Of a DNA stretch of 64,000 nucleotides, positions 47,990-64,000 are shown in pieces. Position numbers and translations under genes: made by a program. Location: the IMG/VR virus record IMGVR_UViG_3300045988_163768, one strand, 5' to 3'. This stretch comes from a virus. Under the pieces are notes generated by a model. It worked only from the letters and a program-made list of their open reading frames with translations, was not told where the DNA came from and made no database searches. Within the stretch, counting starts at the first letter, position 1. Each line of letters starts with the position of its first letter.

Positions 47990-48346
47990 TTAATATCCCG
48001 CGGCAGTCATAATATAATCATAATCAAGTCTACCTTCATCCCAATAAGGAATGATTACAAGAGGAATATTGTGCTTAGCACAATATTCTCTCTTCTTCAT
48101 ATCATTATATTGCTGCTTCCGCAATCCAGAGATTCCGCCAAATTTACTCTTTGGCTCATAATGTTGGATTCCCTGAAACTCTATTAAAAAATCTAATTCG
48201 TTATTATCGTCTAAAATCGCAAAATCAAATCTGAGGGGTCGACCACTAGAACTTACAAGGTCAGAGAAAATATACTCTTCTTTAAAATTCAAACCTGACT
48301 CTTGAAGAATTTCTTCAATTTTTATTTCACCTCTACTTGCTCGCAT
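47990..48346 (-). CDS. DUF559 / Vsr-like PD-(D/E)xK endonuclease-domain protein (free-standing)
   Basis: 118 aa. LRFDFAIL...FLIEFQGIQHY...D..KR.YC..HNIPLVIIP matches the R(F/Y)DF...IE.DG..H...D..R...L...G..v.R pattern of DUF559. Confidence 0.45.
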   Translation of the reverse strand: MRASRGEIKIEEILQESGLNFKEEYIFSDLVSSSGRPLRFDFAILDDNNELDFLIEFQGIQHYEPKSKFGGISGLRKQQYNDMKKREYCAKHNIPLVIIPYWDEGRLDYDYIMTAAGY

Positions 48347-48419: not shown

Positions 48420-49829
48420 TTAGCTAAAGAACATAAAATCTGATATATTTCTACTTCGTTTCTTTTTCTTATGGTCTTCTTCCTGCTTTATATAATATAA
48501 TCCATATATAAAAGCAGAAAATTTATCTTTCTTTATACCTCTTGAAGATTGTTTTAAAATAATATTAACTCCTTCATTTTCTTCAACTAGATTTAGCATT
48601 TGTTCTCTTAAAATTGTTGTTAAAACAAAAGGTTTTAGATATTCGTTTCTTTTATCCGCATCCATATTCTGACCAACTTTTGATGACATTAGTTTAGCTT
48701 TAGCTTCAGACTCATCTTTCAAAAATTTAATTTTTCCGCTAGACATTTGAGTCTGAGTGTATGAATAGGCTTCAGTGTTAATTGGTGCGTTTGCTTTAAT
48801 TAAATATAAAGCATTATCTTCCACATCTCCGCCTTTAATTTTTCTGTAAGGAGCAATAGCATCCTCTGATGTTCCTCCCTCAACTCCAAATGGCGGAAGA
48901 GTATCTCCTGTTTCTGGGTCAATCTGCGCCCTTGTCATGAAGTCGATGAGCCCGATACCCAAGCCATTCGCATCAATAGAGATAATTTTAGCTTTATATT
49001 TATAAAATAATTTTTTTAAATTAATTGCTTGAGTCTCAAAATGTTCTGCTTCATAAGTATAGATATTAACCAAACTTTTTAAAGCCGTTCCTTGCGGTTG
49101 AGGGGTAACTTTGAATATGCAAGCTTCAGTTGTGCAGCCTATACGTCCGACGTCTACCCCTATAACATAATAAGCTGATTTACTACTTCTTCCGCTATAT
49201 TCGTATTCTGGTTGGGATAACACTCTATACCTATCAAACTTTTCAGAAGAATAAAATGCATTTTCTGCATCTCCGCTCCATTTAGAACGATATTCCCTAT
49301 CAAAAGAATCTTCTTTAAATGTACCTTGTAATTTGAGCTGATCTACAAAATCTTCATCTAAAAGCCCTTCCGCAACAGGCGTTTCATACGTTCCACCCAT
49401 AACCATAACTTTATCAGGCTCAATCATAGACTGAACCAAAAGTTCCGTCAGTTTGTCATACGCGAATGAATTCTTCCACCCAGCTGTTGTAATATATATT
49501 TGACTCTTGTTAATTATTTCTTCTTTATGTCTAGTTCCATCTGGTAATAATCTATCAACGTTTGTTGTAGGAATTATTATTTCATTTAATATATCTCCAT
49601 CTATAAGAACACATTCTTCCATTAAACCACCCGTTCTACGCTGGCCTCTAGAAGATTGTTTAGCGGCTAATATATCAATAGAAGAACCATTTTTAAAGAT
49701 ATAATTAACATCATCTTTTGATTTTTTAGAAGCTCCCCTTGACCAATCTAGCTCATTATTAAGTGCGGGGATAAGCTTACATATTTCTTCAATTTTCGCT
49801 ATGGTGATACTGGCAGCCTGCTCTTTCAG
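48420..49829 (-). CDS. terL: terminase large subunit, exon 2 (nuclease domain)
   Basis: The ORF-track Met is at 49622, but the open frame continues upstream to about 49829 (LKEQAAS...RGQRRTGGLMEECVLIDGD...). The upper boundary is the approximate 3' splice site. Confidence 0.55.
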   Translation of the reverse strand: MKEQAASITIAKIEEICKLIPALNNELDWSRGASKKSKDDVNYIFKNGSSIDILAAKQSSRGQRRTGGLMEECVLIDGDILNEIIIPTTNVDRLLPDGTRHKEEIINKSQIYITTAGWKNSFAYDKLTELLVQSMIEPDKVMVMGGTYETPVAEGLLDEDFVDQLKLQGTFKEDSFDREYRSKWSGDAENAFYSSEKFDRYRVLSQPEYEYSGRSSKSAYYVIGVDVGRIGCTTEACIFKVTPQPQGTALKSLVNIYTYEAEHFETQAINLKKLFYKYKAKIISIDANGLGIGLIDFMTRAQIDPETGDTLPPFGVEGGTSEDAIAPYRKIKGGDVEDNALYLIKANAPINTEAYSYTQTQMSSGKIKFLKDESEAKAKLMSSKVGQNMDADKRNEYLKPFVLTTILREQMLNLVEENEGVNIILKQSSRGIKKDKFSAFIYGLYYIKQEEDHKKKKRSRNISDFMFFS

Positions 49830-50800
49830 TTATATTATCCTAAAGGCTTTTTATCCTTTAGTTCTTATACTTCTTTTTCGTATAAGCTTAGCATATCTTT
49901 TCACCCTCGTTTTACGTTAGGTTTGACTATTGGTGAGATAGTCTCAAGCATTCCTATATAATGCTGTGTTGCGGACTCGTGGATGGATTATATCTTTTCA
50001 CCATCTATGCGTTGCCCCTGACTATAGTTCCTATAGCCTTCGGTTCGGATTAGCATCTCAGCCTCCCCGCTTAATTCCGCAATAATCATATATTAAATTT
50101 CTTTAATATACGGCAAAAATTTTTTATTTTATTTTATGATACTTACTTCCATTTTGGATAAAATCTAAATAACTAGCATATTTTCTTTCCAAATAAATAC
50201 TTGAATCTTTATAAATCCAATTTAAAAAATTTAAAACATCTTCATAAGCTCCAAAAACATATCTTTTAGCTCCATTTTCTCTATGAACATCGAAAATTTT
50301 ATTTTCTTTATTTATATTTTCAATAGATTTCAAAAAACCTTTTATAAAATTTTCAGTTCCGATTATACCTATTTGAAAACAACTTTCTGTATTTGTAAAC
50401 CATCCATCGCCATCAAAATACCCTCTTATAAAATGTCTAATTAAATGTTTTGGTACTTGTTTTTCATTTGGAAAATCAAGAATTAATGATTTTTTAGGAA
50501 CGCACCCTTTATCTATTAAATCCTGTTTACATTGAGCATTCCTAAAACTCATTCTATAAGATTTTGTTCTTTCTCTATAGCTAATTTTATTAGTTATATT
50601 CATAAAATCTCTAAATTTTTCTATATGTTTTAAATCTTTTTTTGCTAGTCCTAGTTCTATTTTATCTTCTTTAGAACCAACACTTCCATCCGCATATAAA
50701 AAGCCTAACCAATAAGCTTTTTCTTCAGTATCAATTTTATTAAAATTAGTTAGGACGTTTTTTGCACTCATTTTTAATGCTCCTCCTTTACTTATAATTA
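49830..50800 (-). mobile_element. group I intron interrupting terL, carrying a LAGLIDADG homing endonuclease ORF
   Basis: A terL N-terminal piece and a C-terminal piece are separated by about 1 kb. That gap holds a double-LAGLIDADG ORF plus about 320 nt of structured, GC-richer non-coding sequence (49830-50123). Boundaries are approximate. Confidence 0.6.
50124..50771 (-). CDS. LAGLIDADG homing endonuclease (double motif)
   Basis: WLGFLYADGSV and RGYFDGDGWF are two LAGLIDADG motifs; 215 aa. Confidence 0.8.
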   Translation of the reverse strand: MSAKNVLTNFNKIDTEEKAYWLGFLYADGSVGSKEDKIELGLAKKDLKHIEKFRDFMNITNKISYRERTKSYRMSFRNAQCKQDLIDKGCVPKKSLILDFPNEKQVPKHLIRHFIRGYFDGDGWFTNTESCFQIGIIGTENFIKGFLKSIENINKENKIFDVHRENGAKRYVFGAYEDVLNFLNWIYKDSSIYLERKYASYLDFIQNGSKYHKIK

Positions 50801-51142
50801 TATTTTACCACCAGTAGTAACAAACAAATGTGAATTAGGATAGAGAATACACCTTAACATAAGAATCATCATAGATAAGAATGATTTACTATACGCACGT
50901 GGAAAAGTAGCATACACATACCTATGCCGCATCGTAATCCTTAAAAATATTCTCTGATAAAAAAAGAATTTAAAAGTACTCTCAGGACCTTTCATAAAGT
51001 CTACCAAAAGGTCTGGATATTCTCTATAATAAGCGATTAGATTTCTTAAATGAGGAAGTTGAGCTTTTAGTCTTTCTTCTGACATGCCCTGTTTCTTAAG
51101 GGTTCTAGATTCAGATAAATCTAATAGACCTTTTAAACTCAT
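50798..51142 (-). CDS. terL: terminase large subunit, exon 1 (N-terminal ATPase part with Walker A)
   Basis: FKFFFYQRIFL...ATFPRAYSKSFLSMMILML matches the terminase Walker-A variant (PRG.GKS). This ORF's stop lies inside the intron. Confidence 0.5.
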   Translation of the reverse strand: MSLKGLLDLSESRTLKKQGMSEERLKAQLPHLRNLIAYYREYPDLLVDFMKGPESTFKFFFYQRIFLRITMRHRYVYATFPRAYSKSFLSMMILMLRCILYPNSHLFVTTGGKI

Positions 51143-52350: not shown

Positions 52351-53514
52351 TTATTTATTTTTCTTATTTCGACAACATTTACATATACTGTAAAAATGAT
52401 CTTTACTTGTCTTATTCTTTGAAAAAAATTTATTATGAGCTAATTTGATTTCCCCACAACGGGAACATTTTTTCCATTTTCCTTTTTTCTGAGTTGTGTA
52501 ATACCAAATTAAATAGTCTTCCTGAGCTTGCTCTGACAATAGCTTAGGTATTTTATTCCGCCATAAAGATGATATATATTCCACTGAATGTTTTACATTG
52601 TGTTTTTGATTCAACAGACTCTGAATTTCAAGATTTTGTTTTCCGTCTATTTTATAAATCAAGAGGTCATAATACATTGGATAACTATCTCTTAGAGTCT
52701 TCTCTATTAATGTATCTAAATCCTCCATTAAAAAATATGAATCACTGTAGAATTTTCCCCATGCATCTTCTTTTAGGCGGGAATAGTTACATAATAATGC
52801 AGATATGTGCTTAGGATTAAAAAAAGAAACTAAGCTATTATCTTCAATTTCATCATTTCCGCTAATAGAAACATTTTCATCAAAATCAATTTTGCTAAAA
52901 CTTTTAATTGCGTTCATACAATAAATTGGCGGCTTGTATGCACTTCTAATTACATATTGATCTTGTCTCATAGCAATAAGTTGCTTTTTTAATAAAAATT
53001 TCTTTTTACCAACTGCTTTTTTCTCAGCTTTTTCGACTTCCGCAATCGCGTCTACAAGTTGCTTTAACTCAGGGATTTCCGCAATATCCTGTTGAGTTAT
53101 TTGAAATTTAGGTGTAAAAATAATATTCTTATCATTGGCGATCATATTATAAATGCCATCTTCGCCATTCTCTAAGCGACCAACTAATCCTTCAAAAGAA
53201 GTTTCTCTTTTATTAACTGTGACCATATGATTATCAGTTAATATTTGCTTCTGTTTCCGCTCTTGTTTATCCATAGCAAAAATAATGTAATCTGATAATA
53301 TTTCTAAATATTTAGGTGTTAATTGCTCAGAAGGAGTCTTATCTATAATTTTTTTAACTAATTCATTCCGCTCTTCAGGAGTTTCTAAAGAATAATCTAG
53401 TTTAATAGTAGTTTGCATATTTTCTTCTTCGATTTGTTTTTCTGTTATTTTTTTTTCTTCTTCTAAAACATTATTCTCCTCAAAAGCCTTATCTTCTAAT
53501 GTTATTGGTGTCAT
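52351..53514 (-). CDS. hypothetical protein with a C-terminal zinc ribbon; first gene of the late operon
   Basis: 387 aa with C-terminal CSRCGE...CKCC. Confidence 0.35.
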   Translation of the reverse strand: MTPITLEDKAFEENNVLEEEKKITEKQIEEENMQTTIKLDYSLETPEERNELVKKIIDKTPSEQLTPKYLEILSDYIIFAMDKQERKQKQILTDNHMVTVNKRETSFEGLVGRLENGEDGIYNMIANDKNIIFTPKFQITQQDIAEIPELKQLVDAIAEVEKAEKKAVGKKKFLLKKQLIAMRQDQYVIRSAYKPPIYCMNAIKSFSKIDFDENVSISGNDEIEDNSLVSFFNPKHISALLCNYSRLKEDAWGKFYSDSYFLMEDLDTLIEKTLRDSYPMYYDLLIYKIDGKQNLEIQSLLNQKHNVKHSVEYISSLWRNKIPKLLSEQAQEDYLIWYYTTQKKGKWKKCSRCGEIKLAHNKFFSKNKTSKDHFYSICKCCRNKKNK

Positions 53515-53541: not shown

Positions 53542-53571
53542 ATTATACCACAAAAAAATTTTTTTGTCAAA
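53542..53571 (-). promoter_or_regulatory. late-operon promoter TTGACA-18-TATAAT (minus strand)
   Basis: Minus-strand TATAAT corresponds to plus-strand ATTATA at 53542-53547, and minus-strand TTGACA to plus-strand TGTCAA at 53566-53571. Confidence 0.5.
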
Positions 53572-53651: not shown

Positions 53652-53999
53652 ATGAAAATTAGTATTCTTGGAAGTCGCGGTTTCGCAGATAATCGCCTAG
53701 TCTCCGCAACTATGGAAGATTTTATCCGCGAAACGCAATGTTATTTATTTACTGTTGTTTGCGGGAATACGGAGAAGAAGCTCTCGGAGTCTATTGGAAA
53801 AATATGGGCAGAAAATAATGGTGCTCCTATTGAATATGTATTTGATCGCAACATAGATAAATTAATTCAGAAAATGGTAGAAAATATTGATTTTGGTATA
53901 TTTTTTTATGACGGAAAAGATGCAATAATTAGAAAAATTATTATGAAAATGAAAATGAATGGAAAGCATGGTAAAGTAATTAAAATAGGAGGAAAATAA
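53652..53999 (+). CDS. DUF2493/SLOG-like Rossmann-fold nucleotide-binding protein (tentative)
   Basis: 115 aa. MKISILGSRGF...VVCGNTE...IWAENNGAPIEYVF...FFYDGKDAIIRKI...KHGKVIKI follows the DUF2493/YpsA-like pattern. Confidence 0.4.
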   Translation: MKISILGSRGFADNRLVSATMEDFIRETQCYLFTVVCGNTEKKLSESIGKIWAENNGAPIEYVFDRNIDKLIQKMVENIDFGIFFYDGKDAIIRKIIMKMKMNGKHGKVIKIGGK

Positions 54000-54209: not shown

Positions 54210-54962
54210 ATGAATAAAAAAGAAAGAGCTATTCAAGCCATAAATCATTTTTATAAAATGGAAAAAGAATATTCAGATAAAATCGCATGGTGTAACGCAA
54301 GAACTAAATATTATAGTGGTTTTGTGCCAGGTTCTATTGCAAATAAAATGAAGAAAATAAATGAAAAAAATCTTAATTATGAAATATGGGAAACTGATAC
54401 TGTTAATGCTATTAAAAAAGCTGTATCTGAATTTCCTGATAGTAAGATTGCCGCACTTAATTTTGCATCTTTTAAATATCCTGGCGGAGGCTTTTTAAAA
54501 GGAAGTAGTACTCAAGAAGGAAGCTTATGTCATAAGTCTATTCTTTATAATATTTTGTGGCGGCAAAGAGAAGATTTTTATGGAGAAAATAAAAACTTAA
54601 TAAATCGCGGTTTGTATTGGAATAGAGCGATTTATAGTCCAAACATTCTTTTTGAAGATTTTTATAATTGTGATATTATTACTTGTGCAGCCCCGAATAA
54701 AAAAGAAGCTAAGCGTAATGGGATAACAGATGAAGAAAATACTAAGGCTTTAAAAGAAAGAATCTCTTTTATTTTAGACATTGCGGCGAAAAATAAAATT
54801 GATGTTCTAATCTTAGGAGCTTTTGGATGCGGAGCTTTTGGTCAAGATCCTAATGAAGTTAAAAAGATATTTATGAAATTATCTAATAATTATATTTTTA
54901 AAAAAATAATTTTTGCTATCCCTAATGGATCTAATTTAGACGCTTTTCGGAGCCTTGTTTGA
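54210..54962 (+). CDS. bacterial-type poly(ADP-ribose) glycohydrolase-like macrodomain protein (DUF2263/TIGR02452-like)
   Basis: ALNFASFKYPGGGFLKGSSTQEGSLC matches the PARG signature LNFAS..PGGGF...(7)..QEE.LC, with QEG in place of QEE. LGAFGCGAFGQDP matches the downstream conserved motif. Confidence 0.65.
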   Translation: MNKKERAIQAINHFYKMEKEYSDKIAWCNARTKYYSGFVPGSIANKMKKINEKNLNYEIWETDTVNAIKKAVSEFPDSKIAALNFASFKYPGGGFLKGSSTQEGSLCHKSILYNILWRQREDFYGENKNLINRGLYWNRAIYSPNILFEDFYNCDIITCAAPNKKEAKRNGITDEENTKALKERISFILDIAAKNKIDVLILGAFGCGAFGQDPNEVKKIFMKLSNNYIFKKIIFAIPNGSNLDAFRSLV

Positions 54963-55478
54963 TATCGCGGGTAGTTTTTAAAGAGAAAATGAGAAATATT
55001 TTTATTTTTTTAAAATCCTCTTTATTTTATTTTATTTTAATTTGTTTAAAAAAATTTTTTGGAGAGATTTTTAATTCTCGTTTTTTGATTTTATTTTTAG
55101 ACTTTTAGATTTGAAAAAATTTTTGGAGAGAGAATTGTGGAGAACACTATCTTTTTATAAAAGTAAAAAATTTTAATCCTTTAATATACCCCGGCATTAT
55201 GTTTAAGTATGGTCTGTAGTTTGAGCATCTCTTTTGAGCAAGAAGCAACAAGACACCGCCTAACAAATAATTTTTCAAATCATTTTCCAAAGAGGATATG
55301 CTTTTTGTTCAGAAGAGTTTTGAACACATTATTTTAAGCAAAGAGGAGAAAGAGTTAAACTAATAAAATAAATTCTTTAAATAACTAAAATAAAGCAAGA
55401 AGATTAGAATTTTTATTGGCTATTGGTAGCTTGCCATCTATCGTCGGAGCGTACACTTTCGCAACGCTCCGAGAAGCC

Positions 55479-55750
55479 TGTCAATAGGCAAAATGCACAA
55501 ATTTTTGGCTAAATTTTTGTAAAAAATGCACAAAGATATTTTCCTAAAATGAACTTGTCAATAGGTAAAATTGTACAAAAATACGTGGAAAATTTTGTGC
55601 ATTATGTCTATTGACAAACCCTGTCAATAGTAAAAGTGTACAAAAATATATTCTCATTTTTGTGTAAAATGTCAATAGACAAAAAATGTCAATAGGCAAT
55701 CTGCACAAAGTTTTAAAGGAAAAATTGTGTAAAATGTCTATTGACAGAAT
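55479..55750. repeat. cluster of about 7 direct and inverted ~23-bp iteron-like repeats TGTCAATAG-N5/6-TG(C/T)ACAAA
   Basis: Copies at about 55479, 55557, 55592 (inverted), 55621, 55665, 55687 and 55724 (inverted); additional copies at 59426, 62806 and 62875. Confidence 0.7.
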
Positions 55751-55789: not shown

Positions 55790-56160
55790 AAAGAAAGATA
55801 ATAATAATAATAATAATAATACAATATTATAACAATACAATACATAAATATAATTAACAATAACATTATCTTATATTATTGTTAATCTTATCAATTATAA
55901 CTATATATAAAGAAGAAATATAATGATAATAATGTTAACATTGGTACTGTAATATCTTATAATAATTATAATAAGATAGTATAATAATAATAATAATAAG
56001 CTTATAAAATAATACTAAATAAAATAGTATGATAATATTTATATTATATTTTATTTTACTATTTATAAAAAAGATATAAATATATATATTTAAAACTAAC
56101 TATTAATCTTAATAACATGAGTAAATATGCATTAAAATAAATAAAAATACTGTAAATAAA
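55790..56160. repeat. extremely AT-rich (>90%) ORF-free tract with (AAT)n microsatellites
   Basis: (ATA/AAT)7 at 55801-55822 and again at 55981-56000; only a handful of G/C in about 370 nt. Confidence 0.6.
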
Positions 56161-59066: not shown

Positions 59067-59100
59067 CAAAAGTCTAAGTAAATTAGACTTTTGTTTTTTG
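59067..59100 (+). terminator. rho-independent terminator
   Basis: CAAAAGTCTAA...TTAGACTTTTG stem followed by T6. Confidence 0.55.
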
Positions 59101-59163
59101 TGCAAAATGCTGAATTTTATTTTTGTGCAAAATGACGAAAATAAAAAATTTTTTAAAAAGGGG

Positions 59164-59259
59164 TTGACAAGTCGCGGAAAATGTGTTATAATAGCCGGCT
59201 CGCGAGCAGTCAATGCGAGCCGAGCCTTCCATTATAACATAGTTGAGACATTTTGTCAA
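59164..59259. promoter_or_regulatory. convergent promoter pair 1: + strand TTGACA-17-TGtTATAAT and - strand TTGACA-17-TGtTATAAT bracketing a GC hairpin
   Basis: Plus-strand -35 at 59164-59169 and -10 at 59187-59192. GC hairpin GGCTCGC...GCGAGCC at 59197-59221. Minus-strand -10 at 59231-59236 (ATTATA) and -35 at 59254-59259 (TGTCAA). Confidence 0.5.
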
Positions 59260-59328
59260 GAGAAAAAATGCACAAATTTTTCAAAATTTTTATCCCAAAA
59301 TTTGTGCATTTTTTTTTGAAAAAAACTC

Positions 59329-59432
59329 TTGACAAGGTGGCTCGAGTATGTTATAATGAAAGAGGGCAAAGTCCGTTCGGGGTCGGGGCACCCCGAAATT
59401 TTATTATACCACATCTAGCACCTTTTTGTCAA
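59329..59432. promoter_or_regulatory. convergent promoter pair 2 bracketing the hairpin TTCGGGGTCGGGGCACCCCGAA
   Basis: Plus-strand TTGACA at 59329-59334 and TATAAT at 59352-59357. Hairpin at 59376-59397. Minus-strand -10 ATTATA at 59403-59408 and -35 TGTCAA at 59427-59432 (spacer 18). Confidence 0.5.
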
Positions 59433-59737
59433 TAGGCAATTTGCACAAAAAATAAATTAAAAAAATCCCATTTTTTGACATGGTATACAAAATGCACAAA
59501 ATTTAATAAAATAATACCAAAATTTTCTACACCTTGTGCAAAGTGACGAAATTTTAATAAAAAATCATACCTTTTTTGACACGCAGAAACACAATATGTG
59601 ATATTTAAGGTAGCAAAATGCACAAGAATCCGCCTAAATCCGCATTATTTTTCTACATTTGTATATTTTGACAAAAATACTATGATTTTTATATAAAATT
59701 TCATCACTTTTGCACAATAAAAAATAAATTTGACTTT

Positions 59738-61948: not shown

Positions 61949-62356
61949 ATGACAAACACAAACAAAATGACAAAAAAAGACTTTTTTAAACTGCTGGCAG
62001 GTATCGTAGAAAAAACAGAAGATTTTGACAAGAAAACAGAAACACTTGACTTTATCAATCACGAGATTGAACTGTTAAATAAGAAATCTTCAGCACCAGG
62101 CAAAAAGAAAACAGCTCACATTAAAGAAAATGAGGAGCTTATGGAACTTATTGGAATTGCCTTAGAGCTGTTTGGTAAACCTGTCACGATAACTACAATG
62201 ATTAAAGAGAACGCCGAAATGAGTAAGCTTTCTTCTCAGAAGTTGTCTGCACTGTTGAAAAAAATGATTGAAGCCGGCAAAGTGGTCAGGACAGTTGAAA
62301 AAAGAGTTCCTTACTTTTCTCTTGCAAAAGAAGAAGAAACTGAGAAAGAAGAGTAA
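61949..62356 (+). CDS. hypothetical protein, paralog of the partial gene at 63619
   Basis: 135 aa. The HEIELLNKKSS...LELFGKPVTITTMIKEN...VVRTVEKRVPYFSLAKEE block is shared with the paralog. Confidence 0.45.
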   Translation: MTNTNKMTKKDFFKLLAGIVEKTEDFDKKTETLDFINHEIELLNKKSSAPGKKKTAHIKENEELMELIGIALELFGKPVTITTMIKENAEMSKLSSQKLSALLKKMIEAGKVVRTVEKRVPYFSLAKEEETEKEE

Positions 62357-62386: not shown

Positions 62387-62421
62387 GAGGGCGGATTACA
62401 CAAAATCCGTCCTCCTTTTTT
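62387..62421 (+). terminator. rho-independent terminator
   Basis: GAGGGCGGATT...AATCCGTCCTC stem followed by T6. Confidence 0.5.
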
Positions 62422-62644
62422 GTGCATTTTTTTTCTACTTTTTGCACAAAAAATCCGCTGCTGGAGGGATGTTTTTTATTTAAAAATACCAGAGAACAAA
62501 AAAGTCAATGCACATAAATTACAAAAATAGCCAAAAAATTTTTATAATTTTGGTATTGTTGCACAAAGAGTCCCAGTCTATAATTTTGTGAAAATGTAAC
62601 AAAAATAAGGCTCAAAAAATTTTTTATTTTGTTTATTTTGCCTA

Positions 62645-62738
62645 TTGACAAGCACCCGAAAGTGTGGTATAATAGCGGGTCGCCTTGGATCAAGGCGACC
62701 GAAATATCCATTATACCATACGCTGACGATTTTGTCAA
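62645..62738. promoter_or_regulatory. convergent promoter pair 3 bracketing the hairpin GGTCGCCTT-GGATC-AAGGCGACC
   Basis: Plus-strand TTGACA at 62645-62650 and TGGTATAAT ending at 62673. Hairpin at 62678-62700. Minus-strand -10 ATTATACCA starting at 62710 and -35 TGTCAA at 62733-62738. Confidence 0.5.
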
Positions 62739-63004
62739 GAGAAAAAATGCACAAAAATAAAAAACTTTTTATCCCAAAATTCTCCGTTTTGCACAAAAAT
62801 CTCTGTCAATAGGTAAAATGAACAAAATTTTATATCAAAATCCGCCAATTTTCTCTATTATGCACAATGCTAAACCTGTCAATAGTCAAAATAGACAAAA
62901 TATTTTATTATATTTTGTGTAAAATGCCATTGACTTTTATTTTTTCTTTTGATATAATGTATACATAAAATAAATAAGAAATAAGAAATAGGAAGGTGGT
63001 ACTT

Positions 63005-63280
63005 ATGTTAGAAAAAATTTTAGACCGCTTAGAAGCGGATTTAGAAAAAGGTGGTTTTTGGAATAGTGATAGTTATAGCTATAATTATAGCTATAATGCT
63101 ATTAATGATTTATTAGAATCCTATCAAAAAGAAGGATGGGAGTTTGAATTTGATATTGATTTTATTGAATATCTTAATCCAAAACAACCAAATATTGTAA
63201 GCTTTTCTCTTGCCTGGATTGAAGAAGGTAAGCTTATGACTCAAGTAGTTTTGTGGGAACAAGAAAAAATAAAAAAGTAA
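63005..63280 (+). CDS. hypothetical protein
   Basis: 91 aa from the ATG at 63005 (AGGAAGGTGG Shine-Dalgarno); the ORF-track GTG start is at 62996. Confidence 0.4.
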   Translation: MLEKILDRLEADLEKGGFWNSDSYSYNYSYNAINDLLESYQKEGWEFEFDIDFIEYLNPKQPNIVSFSLAWIEEGKLMTQVVLWEQEKIKK

Positions 63281-63618: not shown

Positions 63619-64000
63619 ATGAATATGATGAAAGACAAAATGACAAAAAAAGATTGGTTTGAAACCATTAGAGCTTTTCTGGAAGAAAGTGACTTTGAAC
63701 TAAAAGAAGAAGCACTTAACTTTCTCAGCCATGAAATCGAGCTGTTGAATAAAAAATCTTCCAGCGGTAAAAAAACCAAAAATCAGAAAGAAAATGAGGA
63801 AATTAAAAAACTCATTCTTGTGGCTCTGGAGTTATTTGGTAAACCTGTTACAGTTACAACCATGATTAAAGAAAACTCTGAGATGAACAAACTTTCTCCT
63901 CAGAAGTTATCGGTTCTTCTTAAACAGCTTGTCGAATCCGAAGAAGTGGTTAGAACTGTTGAAAAAAGAGTTCCTTACTTCTCTCTTGCAAAAGAAGAAG
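63619..64000 (+). CDS. hypothetical protein, partial (runs off the window end), paralog of the 61949 gene
   Basis: MNMMKDKMTKKDWFETIRAFLEE...SHEIELLNKKSS...LELFGKPVTVTTMIKENSEMNKLSPQKLSVLLKQL...VVRTVEKRVPYFSLAKEE. Confidence 0.4.
   Translation, partial: MNMMKDKMTKKDWFETIRAFLEESDFELKEEALNFLSHEIELLNKKSSSGKKTKNQKENEEIKKLILVALELFGKPVTVTTMIKENSEMNKLSPQKLSVLLKQLVESEEVVRTVEKRVPYFSLAKEE

What the first reader, a model, noticed from the sequence alone, without database searches (positions are those of the whole stretch)
55479..55750. Iteron-like array of a ~23-bp repeat with satellite copies in the other regulatory hubs
The repeat is TGTCAATAG-N5/6-TG(C/T)ACAAA. Seven or more copies in both orientations are packed into about 270 bp. 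Further full copies lie at about 59426, 62806 and 62875. Isolated ATGCACAAA / TTTGTGCAT half-sites are dense at 59099-59140, 59268-59310 (a palindrome with a 26-bp spacer), 59440-59620, 62400-62450 and 62740-62800. The TTGACA embedded in each repeat doubles as a -35 hexamer for several promoters. The repeat therefore looks like the operator/iteron for one dimeric DNA-binding protein, either an early-gene repressor or anti-repressor target or a replication initiator. That protein's gene is not evident in this window. The co-occurring motif TTTTTATCCCAAAAT at 59286 and 62765 is a second conserved box.
Basis: seen in the sequence. Interest (0 to 1): 0.7.

Follow-up and report, generated by a model that had tools for sequence, protein, structure and literature searches.

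The report
Tandem host-type operator array in phage
The repeat array is real and is best read as four tandem binding sites for a transcription factor placed in front of a strong early promoter of an uncultured ~135-kb gut phage. The same palindromic site, in the same position relative to promoters, also occurs between genes in more than a hundred Clostridia genomes, so the phage appears to copy a host promoter type whose regulator is still unknown.

Summary
The 23-bp unit TGTCAATAG-N6-TGYACAAA gives 11 hits against 0.05 expected, all in three non-coding hubs. The unit has two parts: an A box containing a sigma-A -35 hexamer, and a B half-site (T-R-Y-ACAAA). The symmetric element is B-N14-B'. 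The array holds four of these, 78, 65 and 65 bp apart, each flanked by A boxes; only the last A box has a -10.

Across 54 related phage loci, B ends exactly 32-33 or 42-44 nt before a -10 hexamer. B/B' spacers are 14 or 24-25 bp.

The palindrome is not private to the phage. It lies in intergenic DNA of at least 120 bacterial loci, mostly Clostridia, with the same 32/43-nt phasing but weak -35 boxes.

Best reading: a tandem operator cluster for a dimeric transcription factor sitting in class-I-activator position. That factor is probably host-encoded and remains unidentified. The iteron/origin reading is not supported. The direction of regulation and the purpose of the fourfold array are inferred, not shown. 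Three phage winged-helix paralogues next to the hubs are weak alternative binders.

The parts
55444..55472 (.). GC-rich inverted repeat (tcggagcgt / acgctccga) directly left of the first A-B unit. No T-run follows it.
   Evidence: Read. A GC hairpin next to an A-B unit recurs in L016, L017 and L013.
55479..55501 (+). A+B unit 1 (TGTCAATAG gcaaaa TGCACAAA)
   Evidence: 0 mismatches
55494..55523 (.). Operator 1: B-N14-B', with a degenerate B' (TTTTGTAA). An extra half-site ATGCACAAA lies at 55526-55534.
55556..55579 (+). A+B unit with a 7-nt spacer
55572..55601 (.). Operator 2: TGTACAAA-N14-TTTGTGCA
   Evidence: 0 mismatches
55594..55616 (-). A+B unit
55622..55644 (+). A+B unit
55637..55666 (.). 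Operator 3: TGTACAAA-N14-TTTGTGTA
55659..55681 (.). Variant unit: B' followed by the quasi-palindromic A box in the other orientation (TGTCAATAGACA)
   Evidence: The same arrangement occurs in L013.
55687..55709 (+). A+B unit
55702..55731 (.). Operator 4: TGCACAAA-N14-ATTGTGTA. Its centre lies about -59.5 from the inferred start site of P55741.
   Evidence: The distance from the end of B' to the -10 is 32 nt.
55724..55746 (-). A+B unit whose TTGACA is the -35 of P55741
55741..55769 (+). Promoter P55741: TTGACA-17-TATAAT with a TG extension. It is the only -10 in the array.
   Evidence: 12/12
55790..56100 (.). Almost pure A+T low-complexity stretch with (AAT)n runs and AT palindromes. P55741 transcribes it. 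Repeat number varies between strains.
59097..59129 (+). Two direct TTTGTGCAAAATG half-sites upstream of P59164
59164..59259 (.). Face-to-face perfect promoters (59164-59192 + and 59259-59231 -) around the GC inverted repeat 59196-59222
59254..59276 (+). A+B unit (TGTCAAGAG variant). It supplies the -35 and upstream box of the leftward promoter.
   Evidence: B to -10 is 32 nt.
59269..59308 (.). Operator of the N24 class between divergent promoters P59259(-) and P59329(+). It contains the ATCCCAAAA box (59287-59301).
59329..59432 (.). Second face-to-face promoter pair (59329-59357 + and 59432-59403 -) around terminator-like hairpin 59376-59397
59427..59449 (+). A+B unit serving leftward promoter P59432
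   Evidence: B to -10 is 33 nt.
62397..62426 (.). Operator (N14) overlapping the terminator of the winged-helix gene
62628..62755 (.). Unit 62628-62650(-) feeding P62645(+), GC hairpin 62677-62700, leftward P62738, and unit 62733-62755(+)
62766..62780 (+). Second copy of the TTTTTATCCCAAAAT box
   Evidence: The ATCCCRAAA box next to B is conserved in L013, L003, L016 and L017.
62804..62826 (+). A+B unit
62877..62958 (.). A+B unit 62877-62899, operator 62892-62921, and promoter P62930-62958 for gene 63005-63280
61949..62356 (+). 135-aa winged-helix protein, a weak candidate binder. A paralogue starts at 63625 and runs off the window; a third lies just beyond the window.

Best explanation
The array is a cluster of four tandem operators for a dimeric transcription factor that works with host sigma-A RNA polymerase.

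Anatomy. Each operator is the inverted repeat T-R-Y-ACAAA / N14 / TTTGT-R-Y-A. Each is flanked on both sides by an extended -35 box (TGYCTATTGACA). One 60-bp unit is therefore the upstream core of a divergent promoter pair.

Geometry. In functional copies the half-site ends 32-33 nt, or one helical turn more, before the -10 hexamer. This puts the palindrome centre near -60 or -70, the position of a class I activator that contacts RNA polymerase.

The array itself. Only the rightmost unit has a -10 (P55741, reading into the early region). The other units bind the factor without starting transcription.

Origin of the binder. The same palindrome, the same 23-bp 'half-site + -35' grammar and the same phasing occur in intergenic regions of many Clostridia genomes, there with weak -35 boxes. 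The factor is therefore most probably a conserved host regulator. The phage promoters are up-versions of a host factor-dependent promoter class.

Shown: the repeat anatomy, the phasing, the conservation, and the occurrence in host genomes.

Inferred: that a protein dimer binds; that it is host-encoded; that it activates weak promoters and modulates the consensus ones; and that the fourfold array serves as a cooperative high-occupancy site, or a sink, that couples P55741 and the early program to the state of that factor.
For: 1. Enrichment and confinement to non-coding hubs.

2. Spacing between inverted half-sites is quantised: N14 occurs 12 times, N24/25 8 times, and other spacings (N50, N63) once each.

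3. Distance from the end of B to the -10 was measured over 387 unique B contexts from 54 phage-family loci. It gives 75 at 32 nt, 35 at 33 nt and 50 at 42-44 nt, against about 2 per bin. The upstream control is flat apart from small peaks at 55 nt (19) and 67 nt (10); the first fits the -10 of the divergent partner promoter.

4. In relative L013, gene-proximal promoters without a -35 carry B at exactly 32 nt.

5. The 65-bp-period architecture is kept in L016 (63% sigma identity), where the surrounding DNA no longer aligns.

6. In 8 unique strain variants the array has no indels. A boxes are variable at 2/66 columns. The B cores are invariant: all 8 variable B columns fall at the R/Y positions. 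Spacers vary at 17/130 columns. The flanks carry indels.

7. A genome-collection scan found at least 120 loci. 73 of the 80 titles shown are Clostridia, including isolates R. albus 8, R. bromii ATCC 27255 and A. neopropionicum.

8. Only 1 of those 120 loci is a contig of this phage family.

9. Host sites are intergenic. 30 of 128 lie in an open frame of at least 150 aa, against 487 of 600 for random 32-mers from the same loci.

10. Host sites show the same peaks, at 32 nt (13) and 42-43 nt (16). They read TTTGTGCA-N6-C(T/A)ATTG(C/T)A-N17-TATAAT.

11. Neighbouring host genes are diverse chromosomal genes: transporters, glycoside hydrolases, sigma factors and MarR regulators.

12. Viral contigs outside this phage family also carry the palindrome, mostly in intergenic positions.
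Against: No binding protein is identified and nothing was tested biochemically.

In this window every promoter linked to B already has a consensus -35 and -10 and would not need an activator. The sign of regulation is therefore open.

The host of this phage is not known. Its 30% GC is below that of most of the bacterial loci that carry the site.

Regulon size and true taxonomic spread are therefore not measured.

Strong conservation of the A box in copies without a -10 is not explained by a factor that reads only B.

An AT-rich stretch right after the array would also suit an origin.
Confidence: 0.6

Rival explanations
1. The binder is phage-encoded, for example the three winged-helix paralogues interleaved with the hubs, acting as an early-promoter repressor or timer. 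The bacterial sites then belong to a related host regulator or to other mobile elements.
For: Winged-helix genes at 61949, 63625 and just beyond the window flank hubs C and D. The AF2 model has a winged helix (pLDDT 74.5 overall, about 85 in the domain) with ArsR/MarR/HxlR-like Foldseek matches. In L013 a cluster of three operators lies upstream of the homologue. The motif differs in the L007 group, which uses TTTACAT boxes, as expected if the binder evolves with the phage.
Against: The recognition helix (SNQKLSALLK) is conserved in L007, L008 and L011, which lack TTTGTGCA enrichment, and it differs in L016, which has the array. There is thus no covariation with B. Homologues are found almost only on phage contigs. 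Meanwhile 119 of the 120 bacterial loci with the palindrome carry no homologue of this protein. Foldseek E-values are weak (0.03-0.15).
Confidence: 0.22
2. No separate factor is involved. The 23-bp unit is only a promoter upstream element plus -35, read by RNA polymerase itself (alpha C-terminal domain plus sigma region 4). The array would then be a decayed tandem duplication of a divergent-promoter cassette or an RNA polymerase docking site.
For: B keeps a fixed distance to the -10. A is a -35 hexamer. Early-gene cassettes in this region are clearly duplicated and reshuffled.
Against: B is not A/T-tract-like. The B-to-B' spacing is fixed at 14 or 24-25 bp even where no -10 exists. Array length and box sequences are invariant across 8 strain variants while spacers and flanks change. 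That argues for function, and for a bridging dimer rather than two independent polymerases.
Confidence: 0.1
3. A replication origin: iterons bound by an initiator, activated by transcription from P55741 into the adjacent AT-rich unwinding region.
For: There are four regularly spaced repeats, a strong promoter, and then about 310 bp of nearly pure A+T with palindromes. The gene-orientation and GC-skew switch lies nearby at about 53.5 kb.
Against: The same half-site is phased to -10 hexamers at dozens of promoters in phages and bacteria and occurs in more than 100 bacterial intergenic regions. The units are inverted pairs. No initiator-like gene is adjacent. The tandem array is specific to this lineage, whereas the operator is family-wide. 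The skew switch coincides with the change of gene strand.
Confidence: 0.06
4. A structural element: DNA cruciform or RNA hairpin formed by the inverted repeats.
For: The 60-bp units are palindromic.
Against: Strain variants change the R/Y positions of B and B' independently and create C-A or A-C mismatches. Unit 2, for example, reads TGCACAAA...TTTGTACA in L001 and TATACAAA...TTTGTACA in L006. Loops of 14-25 nt with AT-rich 8-bp stems are weak. No Rfam family matched.
Confidence: 0.02

Closest known systems
Central control region of Bacillus phage phi29 (promoters A2c, A2b, A3 with protein p4 sites and host Spo0A '0A boxes')
   Same: A phage non-coding hub with closely spaced divergent promoters. 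An upstream-bound regulator recruits RNA polymerase to a promoter lacking a -35 and acts differently at strong early promoters. Binding sites for a host regulator are placed at fixed positions next to phage promoters, so that phage development follows host state (PMC2731898). Relative L013 shows the pairing of a strong promoter with a -35-less promoter around the operator.
   Different: No p4-like protein was identified. The motif is unrelated. The host factor is unknown and is not Spo0A (TGTCGAA). In this window all operator-linked promoters have consensus -35 boxes. The fourfold tandem array of promoter-less units has no phi29 counterpart.
Class I activator sites of the CRP type (palindrome centred near -61.5 or -71.5, also serving divergent promoters); comparison from established knowledge
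   Same: Palindromic dimer site upstream of the -35. Allowed positions differ by one helical turn (B to -10 is 32-33 or 42-44 nt, giving centres near -60 and -70). One site can serve two divergent promoters. Host versions have weak -35 boxes.
   Different: Half-site centres are 22 or 32-33 bp apart, against about 11 bp for CRP. The sequence is unrelated. No CRP/FNR-family protein is implicated.
Origin iterons of lambdoid phages and iteron plasmids
   Same: Several regularly spaced copies of a roughly 20-bp site next to an AT-rich region and a promoter.
   Different: The units are inverted pairs, not one-way repeats. They are phased to promoters, widely present in bacterial intergenic DNA, and have no adjacent initiator gene.
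Transcription-factor titration (decoy) site clusters, e.g. the E. coli datA locus for DnaA; comparison from established knowledge, function only
   Same: A cluster of high-quality sites with no transcriptional output of its own. On a replicating phage genome such a cluster could soak up a factor.
   Different: Purely an analogy. Nothing here measures titration, and the last unit does drive a promoter.

Membership tests
Transcription-factor operator in class-I-activator-like position | Inverted half-sites with fixed spacing | tested here: met
   N14 occurs 12 times and N24/25 8 times; other spacings (N50, N63) occur once each. There are 6 N14 operators in the window against 0.03 expected.
Transcription-factor operator in class-I-activator-like position | Fixed helical phase relative to the core promoter | tested here: met
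   B to -10 is 32-33 nt (110 cases) or 42-44 nt (50 cases) out of 387 contexts, against a background of about 2 per bin. The same peaks appear in bacterial loci.
Transcription-factor operator in class-I-activator-like position | Sites lie in intergenic regulatory DNA and their core bases are under constraint | tested here: met
   All window copies lie in non-coding hubs. 30 of 128 host sites fall in open frames against 487 of 600 controls. The ACAAA cores are invariant in 8 strain variants.
Transcription-factor operator in class-I-activator-like position | A cognate protein that binds the site | not testable with these tools
   Candidates only. The winged-helix paralogues show no covariation. 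The p92a family is phage-only with no known domain.
Host-regulator boxes carried on a phage genome (as Spo0A boxes on phi29) | The same motif occurs in regulatory regions of bacterial chromosomes | tested here: met
   At least 120 genome loci, mostly Clostridia and including isolates. 119 of 120 have no homologue of this phage's early proteins. Neighbouring genes are chromosomal metabolic and transport genes.
Host-regulator boxes carried on a phage genome (as Spo0A boxes on phi29) | The bacteria carrying the motif include the phage's own host | not tested
   The host is unknown. The closest cultured relatives infect Enterococcus at only 38% sigma identity.
phi29 p4-type early/late switch | A strong promoter and a -35-less promoter diverge from a shared upstream site | tested here: inconclusive
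   Seen in relative L013 at four modules. In this window the B-linked promoters all have consensus -35 boxes.
phi29 p4-type early/late switch | A p4-like small regulator gene | not tested
   No dedicated search was done. Pfam and PHROG scans of the early-region proteins gave no regulator family.
Replication-origin iterons | Direct repeats in one orientation bound by an initiator encoded nearby | tested here: not met
   The units are inverted pairs. The neighbours are a PARG-like gene and a 92-aa protein of unknown function.
Replication-origin iterons | Adjacent AT-rich unwinding region | tested here: met
   55790-56100 is almost pure A+T.
Replication-origin iterons | Sites restricted to origins rather than phased with promoters | tested here: not met
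Partition centromere (parS/parC) | Adjacent ParA/ParB or ParM/ParR genes | tested here: inconclusive
   None appeared among the window proteins scanned. Only about half of the genome is in the window.

The most novel reading that the evidence does not exclude
The palindrome TGCACAAA-N14-TTTGTGCA, with its fixed 32/43-nt phasing to the -10, defines the regulon of an uncharacterised and widely conserved activator of gut Clostridia (Oscillospiraceae, Ruminococcaceae, Lachnospiraceae and relatives). A large family of ~100-195-kb gut phages, and other phages, have copied this promoter grammar for their early hubs. The fourfold promoter-less array acts as a sensor or sponge for that host factor. It would tie the phage early program to host physiology, or drain the factor from host promoters as the phage genome replicates.
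Probability: 0.3. Interest if true: 0.75.

Novelty: new variant of a known kind. Interest (0 to 1): 0.55.

Why it matters
Phages that carry binding sites for host regulators, as phi29 does with Spo0A, can read the state of their host. Very few such cases are known, and none for the abundant uncultured phages of gut Clostridia.

This work gives an exact, testable DNA site, its geometry relative to promoters, and a list of bacterial and phage loci that carry it. That makes two open points directly testable. First, which regulator of gut Clostridia uses this site and what it controls. Second, whether a widespread gut phage family uses it to time, gate or sabotage transcription.

If the binder turns out to be a phage protein, the result is a more ordinary early-promoter control system.

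Tried and rejected
1. DNA similarity to known phages. Megablast found none and blastn found only trivial promoter-like matches. The phage is uncultured; the nearest cultured relatives are Enterococcus phages at 38% sigma identity.

2. Rfam and tRNA scans of the region found nothing above chance.

3. Winged-helix protein as the binder. The fold is a winged helix, but its recognition helix does not co-vary with the B box. It is kept only as a weak rival.

4. p92a, the first gene after the array. Its presence correlates only partly with B boxes. The family is phage-only and has no known domain.

5. Other small window proteins scanned for DNA-binding domains. None were found; the hits were kinase, radical SAM, dUTPase and RuvC families.

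6. Literature search for the motif gave only primer-type coincidences.

7. Hairpin or cruciform reading. Rejected because strain substitutions are not compensatory.

8. B as the -35 of an alternative sigma, or the 23-mer as a single-subunit polymerase promoter. Rejected: the spacings do not fit, no -10 partner is conserved, and N24/25 variants and promoter-less arrays exist.

9. Array as the boundary of a terminal repeat. One 9.9-kb contig spans exactly from the AT-rich stretch to the next low-complexity region, and three contigs end in the latter. But ten other contigs run straight through the array and the AT-rich stretch. Inconclusive, and not used.

10. A recurrent regulator gene next to the bacterial sites was sought, to name the factor. 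The neighbours are too diverse: a few ECF-type sigma, MarR and TetR genes and some antitoxin-like genes.

Full report
**What the window is.** The window has no close DNA match among 50,697 phage records. It encodes:
- a DnaE-type polymerase and an anaerobic ribonucleotide reductase;
- a 2,842-aa tape-measure protein and a long block of minus-strand structural genes;
- a phage sigma factor at 52351-53514.

From 53.6 kb onward there is a plus-strand region of very small genes. Each has its own strong host-type promoter. There are 16 perfect TTGACA-17-TATAAT promoters in 10.5 kb.

Identical proteins occur on contigs of 134-141 kb in many human-gut and other metagenomes. The nearest cultured relatives are ~140-kb Enterococcus phages at 38% sigma identity.

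**Checking the observation.** The 23-bp repeat is real and far above chance, with 11 hits against 0.05 expected. Every hit lies in one of three non-coding hubs: 55.48-55.75, 59.1-59.6 and 62.4-62.95 kb. The half-site TTTGTGCA occurs 18 times against 2.7 expected, 15 of them in the hubs. A fourth hub lies just past the window end, at about 64.1-64.3 kb in the same phage (locus L019), and none follows in the next 8 kb.

**Anatomy.** The unit is composite.
- The 'A box' TGTCAATAG, read on the other strand, is CTATTGACA, an extended -35 hexamer.
- The 'B box' is T-R-Y-ACAAA.
- The two boxes are not related to each other by symmetry. The symmetric element is B-N14-B'.

The array has four such elements, starting at 55494, 55572, 55637 and 55702. 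Each is flanked by A boxes, giving 60-bp palindromic units A-B-N14-B'-A' at a 65-bp period (78 bp for the first). Only the last A box is followed by a -10: P55741, a 12/12 promoter with a TG extension. At the other seven A boxes the -10 position falls inside the neighbouring unit and is not promoter-like. P55741 reads into about 310 bp of almost pure A+T (55790-56100) before the next promoter and the first gene (56217).

**Evidence that the site belongs to transcription.** I fetched relatives through the sigma factor and through an exact-pattern scan. Two regularities emerged.
- *Spacing of inverted pairs.* B-B' pairs have quantised spacers: 14 bp twelve times and 24-25 bp eight times; other spacings (N50, N63) occur once each.
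- *Distance to the -10.* Over 387 unique B contexts from 54 family loci, the end of B lies 32 nt before a -10-like hexamer in 75 cases, 33 nt in 35 cases, and 42-44 nt in 50 cases. Background is about 2 per bin. The control on the other side of the box is flat apart from small peaks at 55 nt (19) and 67 nt (10); the first fits the -10 of the divergent partner promoter.

They place the palindrome centre near -60 or -70, as for a class I activator.

In the window, the promoters with B at this distance are P55741, P59259(-), P59432(-), P62738(-), P62645, P59329 (43 nt) and P62930 (31 nt). In the distant relative L013 (47% sigma identity), the same box at exactly 32 nt precedes gene-proximal promoters that have a -10 but no -35. 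The partner promoter on the other side is a consensus promoter reading into the upstream terminator. This is the arrangement known from the phi29 A2b/A3 region (PMC2731898).

**Conservation.** L016 (63% sigma identity) keeps a 65-bp-period array although the surrounding DNA no longer aligns. L017 and L013 have clusters of operators. Arrays of three or more operators at 65 bp occur only in the window's own lineage.

Within that lineage, thirteen copies gave eight unique sequences.
- There are no indels in the array, although the flanks and the AT-rich stretch have them.
- A boxes vary at 2 of 66 columns.
- Spacers vary at 17 of 130 columns.
- All 8 variable B columns fall on the two R/Y positions. 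The T..ACAAA cores never change.
- Changes in B and B' are independent and break potential base pairs, which argues against a hairpin or cruciform role.

**The site is not private to the phage.** Of the 80 titles shown, 73 are Clostridia. The families are Oscillospiraceae, Ruminococcaceae, Acutalibacteraceae, Lachnospiraceae and Eubacteriales. They include the isolates Ruminococcus albus 8, R. bromii ATCC 27255 and Anaerotignum neopropionicum.
- Only one of the 120 loci is a contig of this phage family.
- The sites avoid coding sequence. 30 of 128 lie in an open frame of at least 150 aa, against 487 of 600 for random 32-mers from the same loci.
- Neighbouring genes are ordinary chromosomal genes of many kinds: MalK-type ATPases, solute-binding proteins, sugar transporters, GH5 and GH94 enzymes, ECF-type sigma factors, and MarR and TetR regulators.
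- The bacterial sites show the same phasing to -10 hexamers, with peaks at 32 nt and 42-43 nt.
- The 32-nt class reads TTTGTGCA-N6-C(T/A)ATTG(C/T)A-N17-TATAAT. That is the phage's 23-bp B+A unit in the same register, but with a weak -35 (TTGCAA or TTGTAA).
- Viral contigs outside this phage family also carry the palindrome, mostly between genes.

**Interpretation.** The 23-bp repeat is the upstream half of a promoter class used in Clostridia: factor half-site plus -35. The phage versions carry a consensus -35. The array is four such divergent-promoter cores in tandem, stripped of their -10s except at the right end.

I therefore read the array as a tandem operator cluster for a dimeric factor that contacts sigma-A RNA polymerase, most probably a conserved host regulator. 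The sign of regulation at the phage's consensus promoters is not established. By analogy with phi29 p4, the same contact could activate weak promoters and hold or repress strong ones. The purpose of four promoter-less units is also not established. It could be cooperative high occupancy upstream of P55741, or a sink for the factor on a replicating genome.

**Who binds.** The factor is not identified.
- The 135-aa protein at 61949-62356 has two paralogues interleaved with hubs C and D. It models as two helices plus a winged helix with generic ArsR/MarR/HxlR-like matches.
- Its recognition helix is conserved in relatives that lack B boxes and differs in L016, which has them. It could instead read the A-box palindrome (TGTCAATTGACA in L013), which is conserved family-wide, but this is conjecture.
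- The first gene after the array (p92a) is phage-only and has no known domain.
- No recurrent regulator gene flanks the bacterial sites.
- The held literature has no mention of the motif.

**Rivals.** An origin with iterons fits only the adjacency of an AT-rich stretch. It is contradicted by the promoter phasing, the inverted arrangement, the bacterial intergenic occurrences and the lack of an initiator gene. A polymerase-only element does not explain the fixed B-B' spacing in units that have no -10. It also does not explain the strict conservation of the array.

**Verdict.** This is a new variant of a known kind of arrangement, with an unidentified and apparently widespread Clostridial regulator behind it.

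Noticed in passing
window 59164-59259, 59329-59432, 62645-62738: Three pairs of perfect 12/12 promoters face each other across only about 40-50 bp that hold a GC-rich hairpin. Leftward consensus promoters firing into a GC hairpin or terminator recur in relatives L007, L009, L011 and L013. They look like early-gene cassettes that lost their gene (an RBS-like GAAAGAGGG remains at 59360). The role of the conserved leftward 'dead-end' promoters is unexplained.
   Followed up: partly
window 55790-56100: About 310 bp of almost pure A+T with two (AAT)n runs and AT palindromes, transcribed from P55741. It has no ORF, and repeat number and indels vary between strains. Its function is unknown: a leader, an unwinding element or a spacer.
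   Followed up: partly
L019 13134-14328 (about 65.1-66.3 kb in window coordinates, just beyond the window): A 1.2-kb non-coding stretch, strongly C/T-rich on one strand, followed by (ATT)n, a direct repeat of about 45 bp and palindromes. It sits where the plus-strand early genes meet minus-strand genes. Three contigs end here. One 9.9-kb contig spans exactly from the AT-rich stretch at 56073 to this point. This may be a genome end or the boundary of a ~10-kb terminal repeat, or simply hard to assemble. Ten other contigs cross the 55.8-kb side without a break.
   Followed up: partly
L018 8500-9800 (Enterococcus phage VRE9_2, PP680568.1, record 131.2-132.6 kb): The equivalent non-coding region of the cultured relative is packed with other palindromes. 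Two are TGTAAGCGCTTACA, identical to the ideal CcpA cre site. Two are TTGTGAAAnATTTCACAA-like sites resembling the Rex box. The comparison with cre and Rex is from memory. It suggests that carrying host-regulator sites in this hub is a family habit.
   Followed up: no
window 61949-62356, 63625-64000, and L019 12738-13133: Three paralogous 131-135-aa proteins, each with two N-terminal helices, a winged helix and an acidic tail. They are interleaved with the motif hubs and are present in one or two copies in most relatives.
   Followed up: yes
window 48420-51142 (minus strand): The gene that looks like the large terminase subunit appears split (50798-51142 and 48420-49622). The 215-aa ORF between the pieces (50124-50771) carries LAGLIDADG-like motifs, seen by eye. 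A 118-aa ORF follows at 47990-48346. It may be an intron or intein with a homing endonuclease.
   Followed up: no
L007 1100-1400 and 3950-4250: A sub-group of relatives (L007) keeps the hub layout: terminator, leftward consensus promoter, boxes, rightward promoter. It uses TTTACAT/ATGTAAA boxes in place of TTTGTGCA.
   Followed up: partly
window 59287-59301, 62766-62780; L013, L003, L016, L017: The second box ATCCCRAAA (TTYGGGAT on the other strand) sits 3-4 nt from one B half-site, always in the N24/25 operators and in some N14 ones. It is not seen in the spacers of the bacterial sites. It may be a site for a second, phage-specific factor.
   Followed up: partly
window 53542-53570 (minus strand): The phage sigma-factor gene is itself preceded by a perfect host-type promoter without A/B boxes. 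It is presumably made early by host polymerase.
   Followed up: no
window 54210-54962 and 53652-53999: Just left of the array lie a microbial-type PARG/macro-domain protein and a SLOG-like protein. The PARG gene is missing in one strain variant (L266) while the array is unchanged.
   Followed up: no
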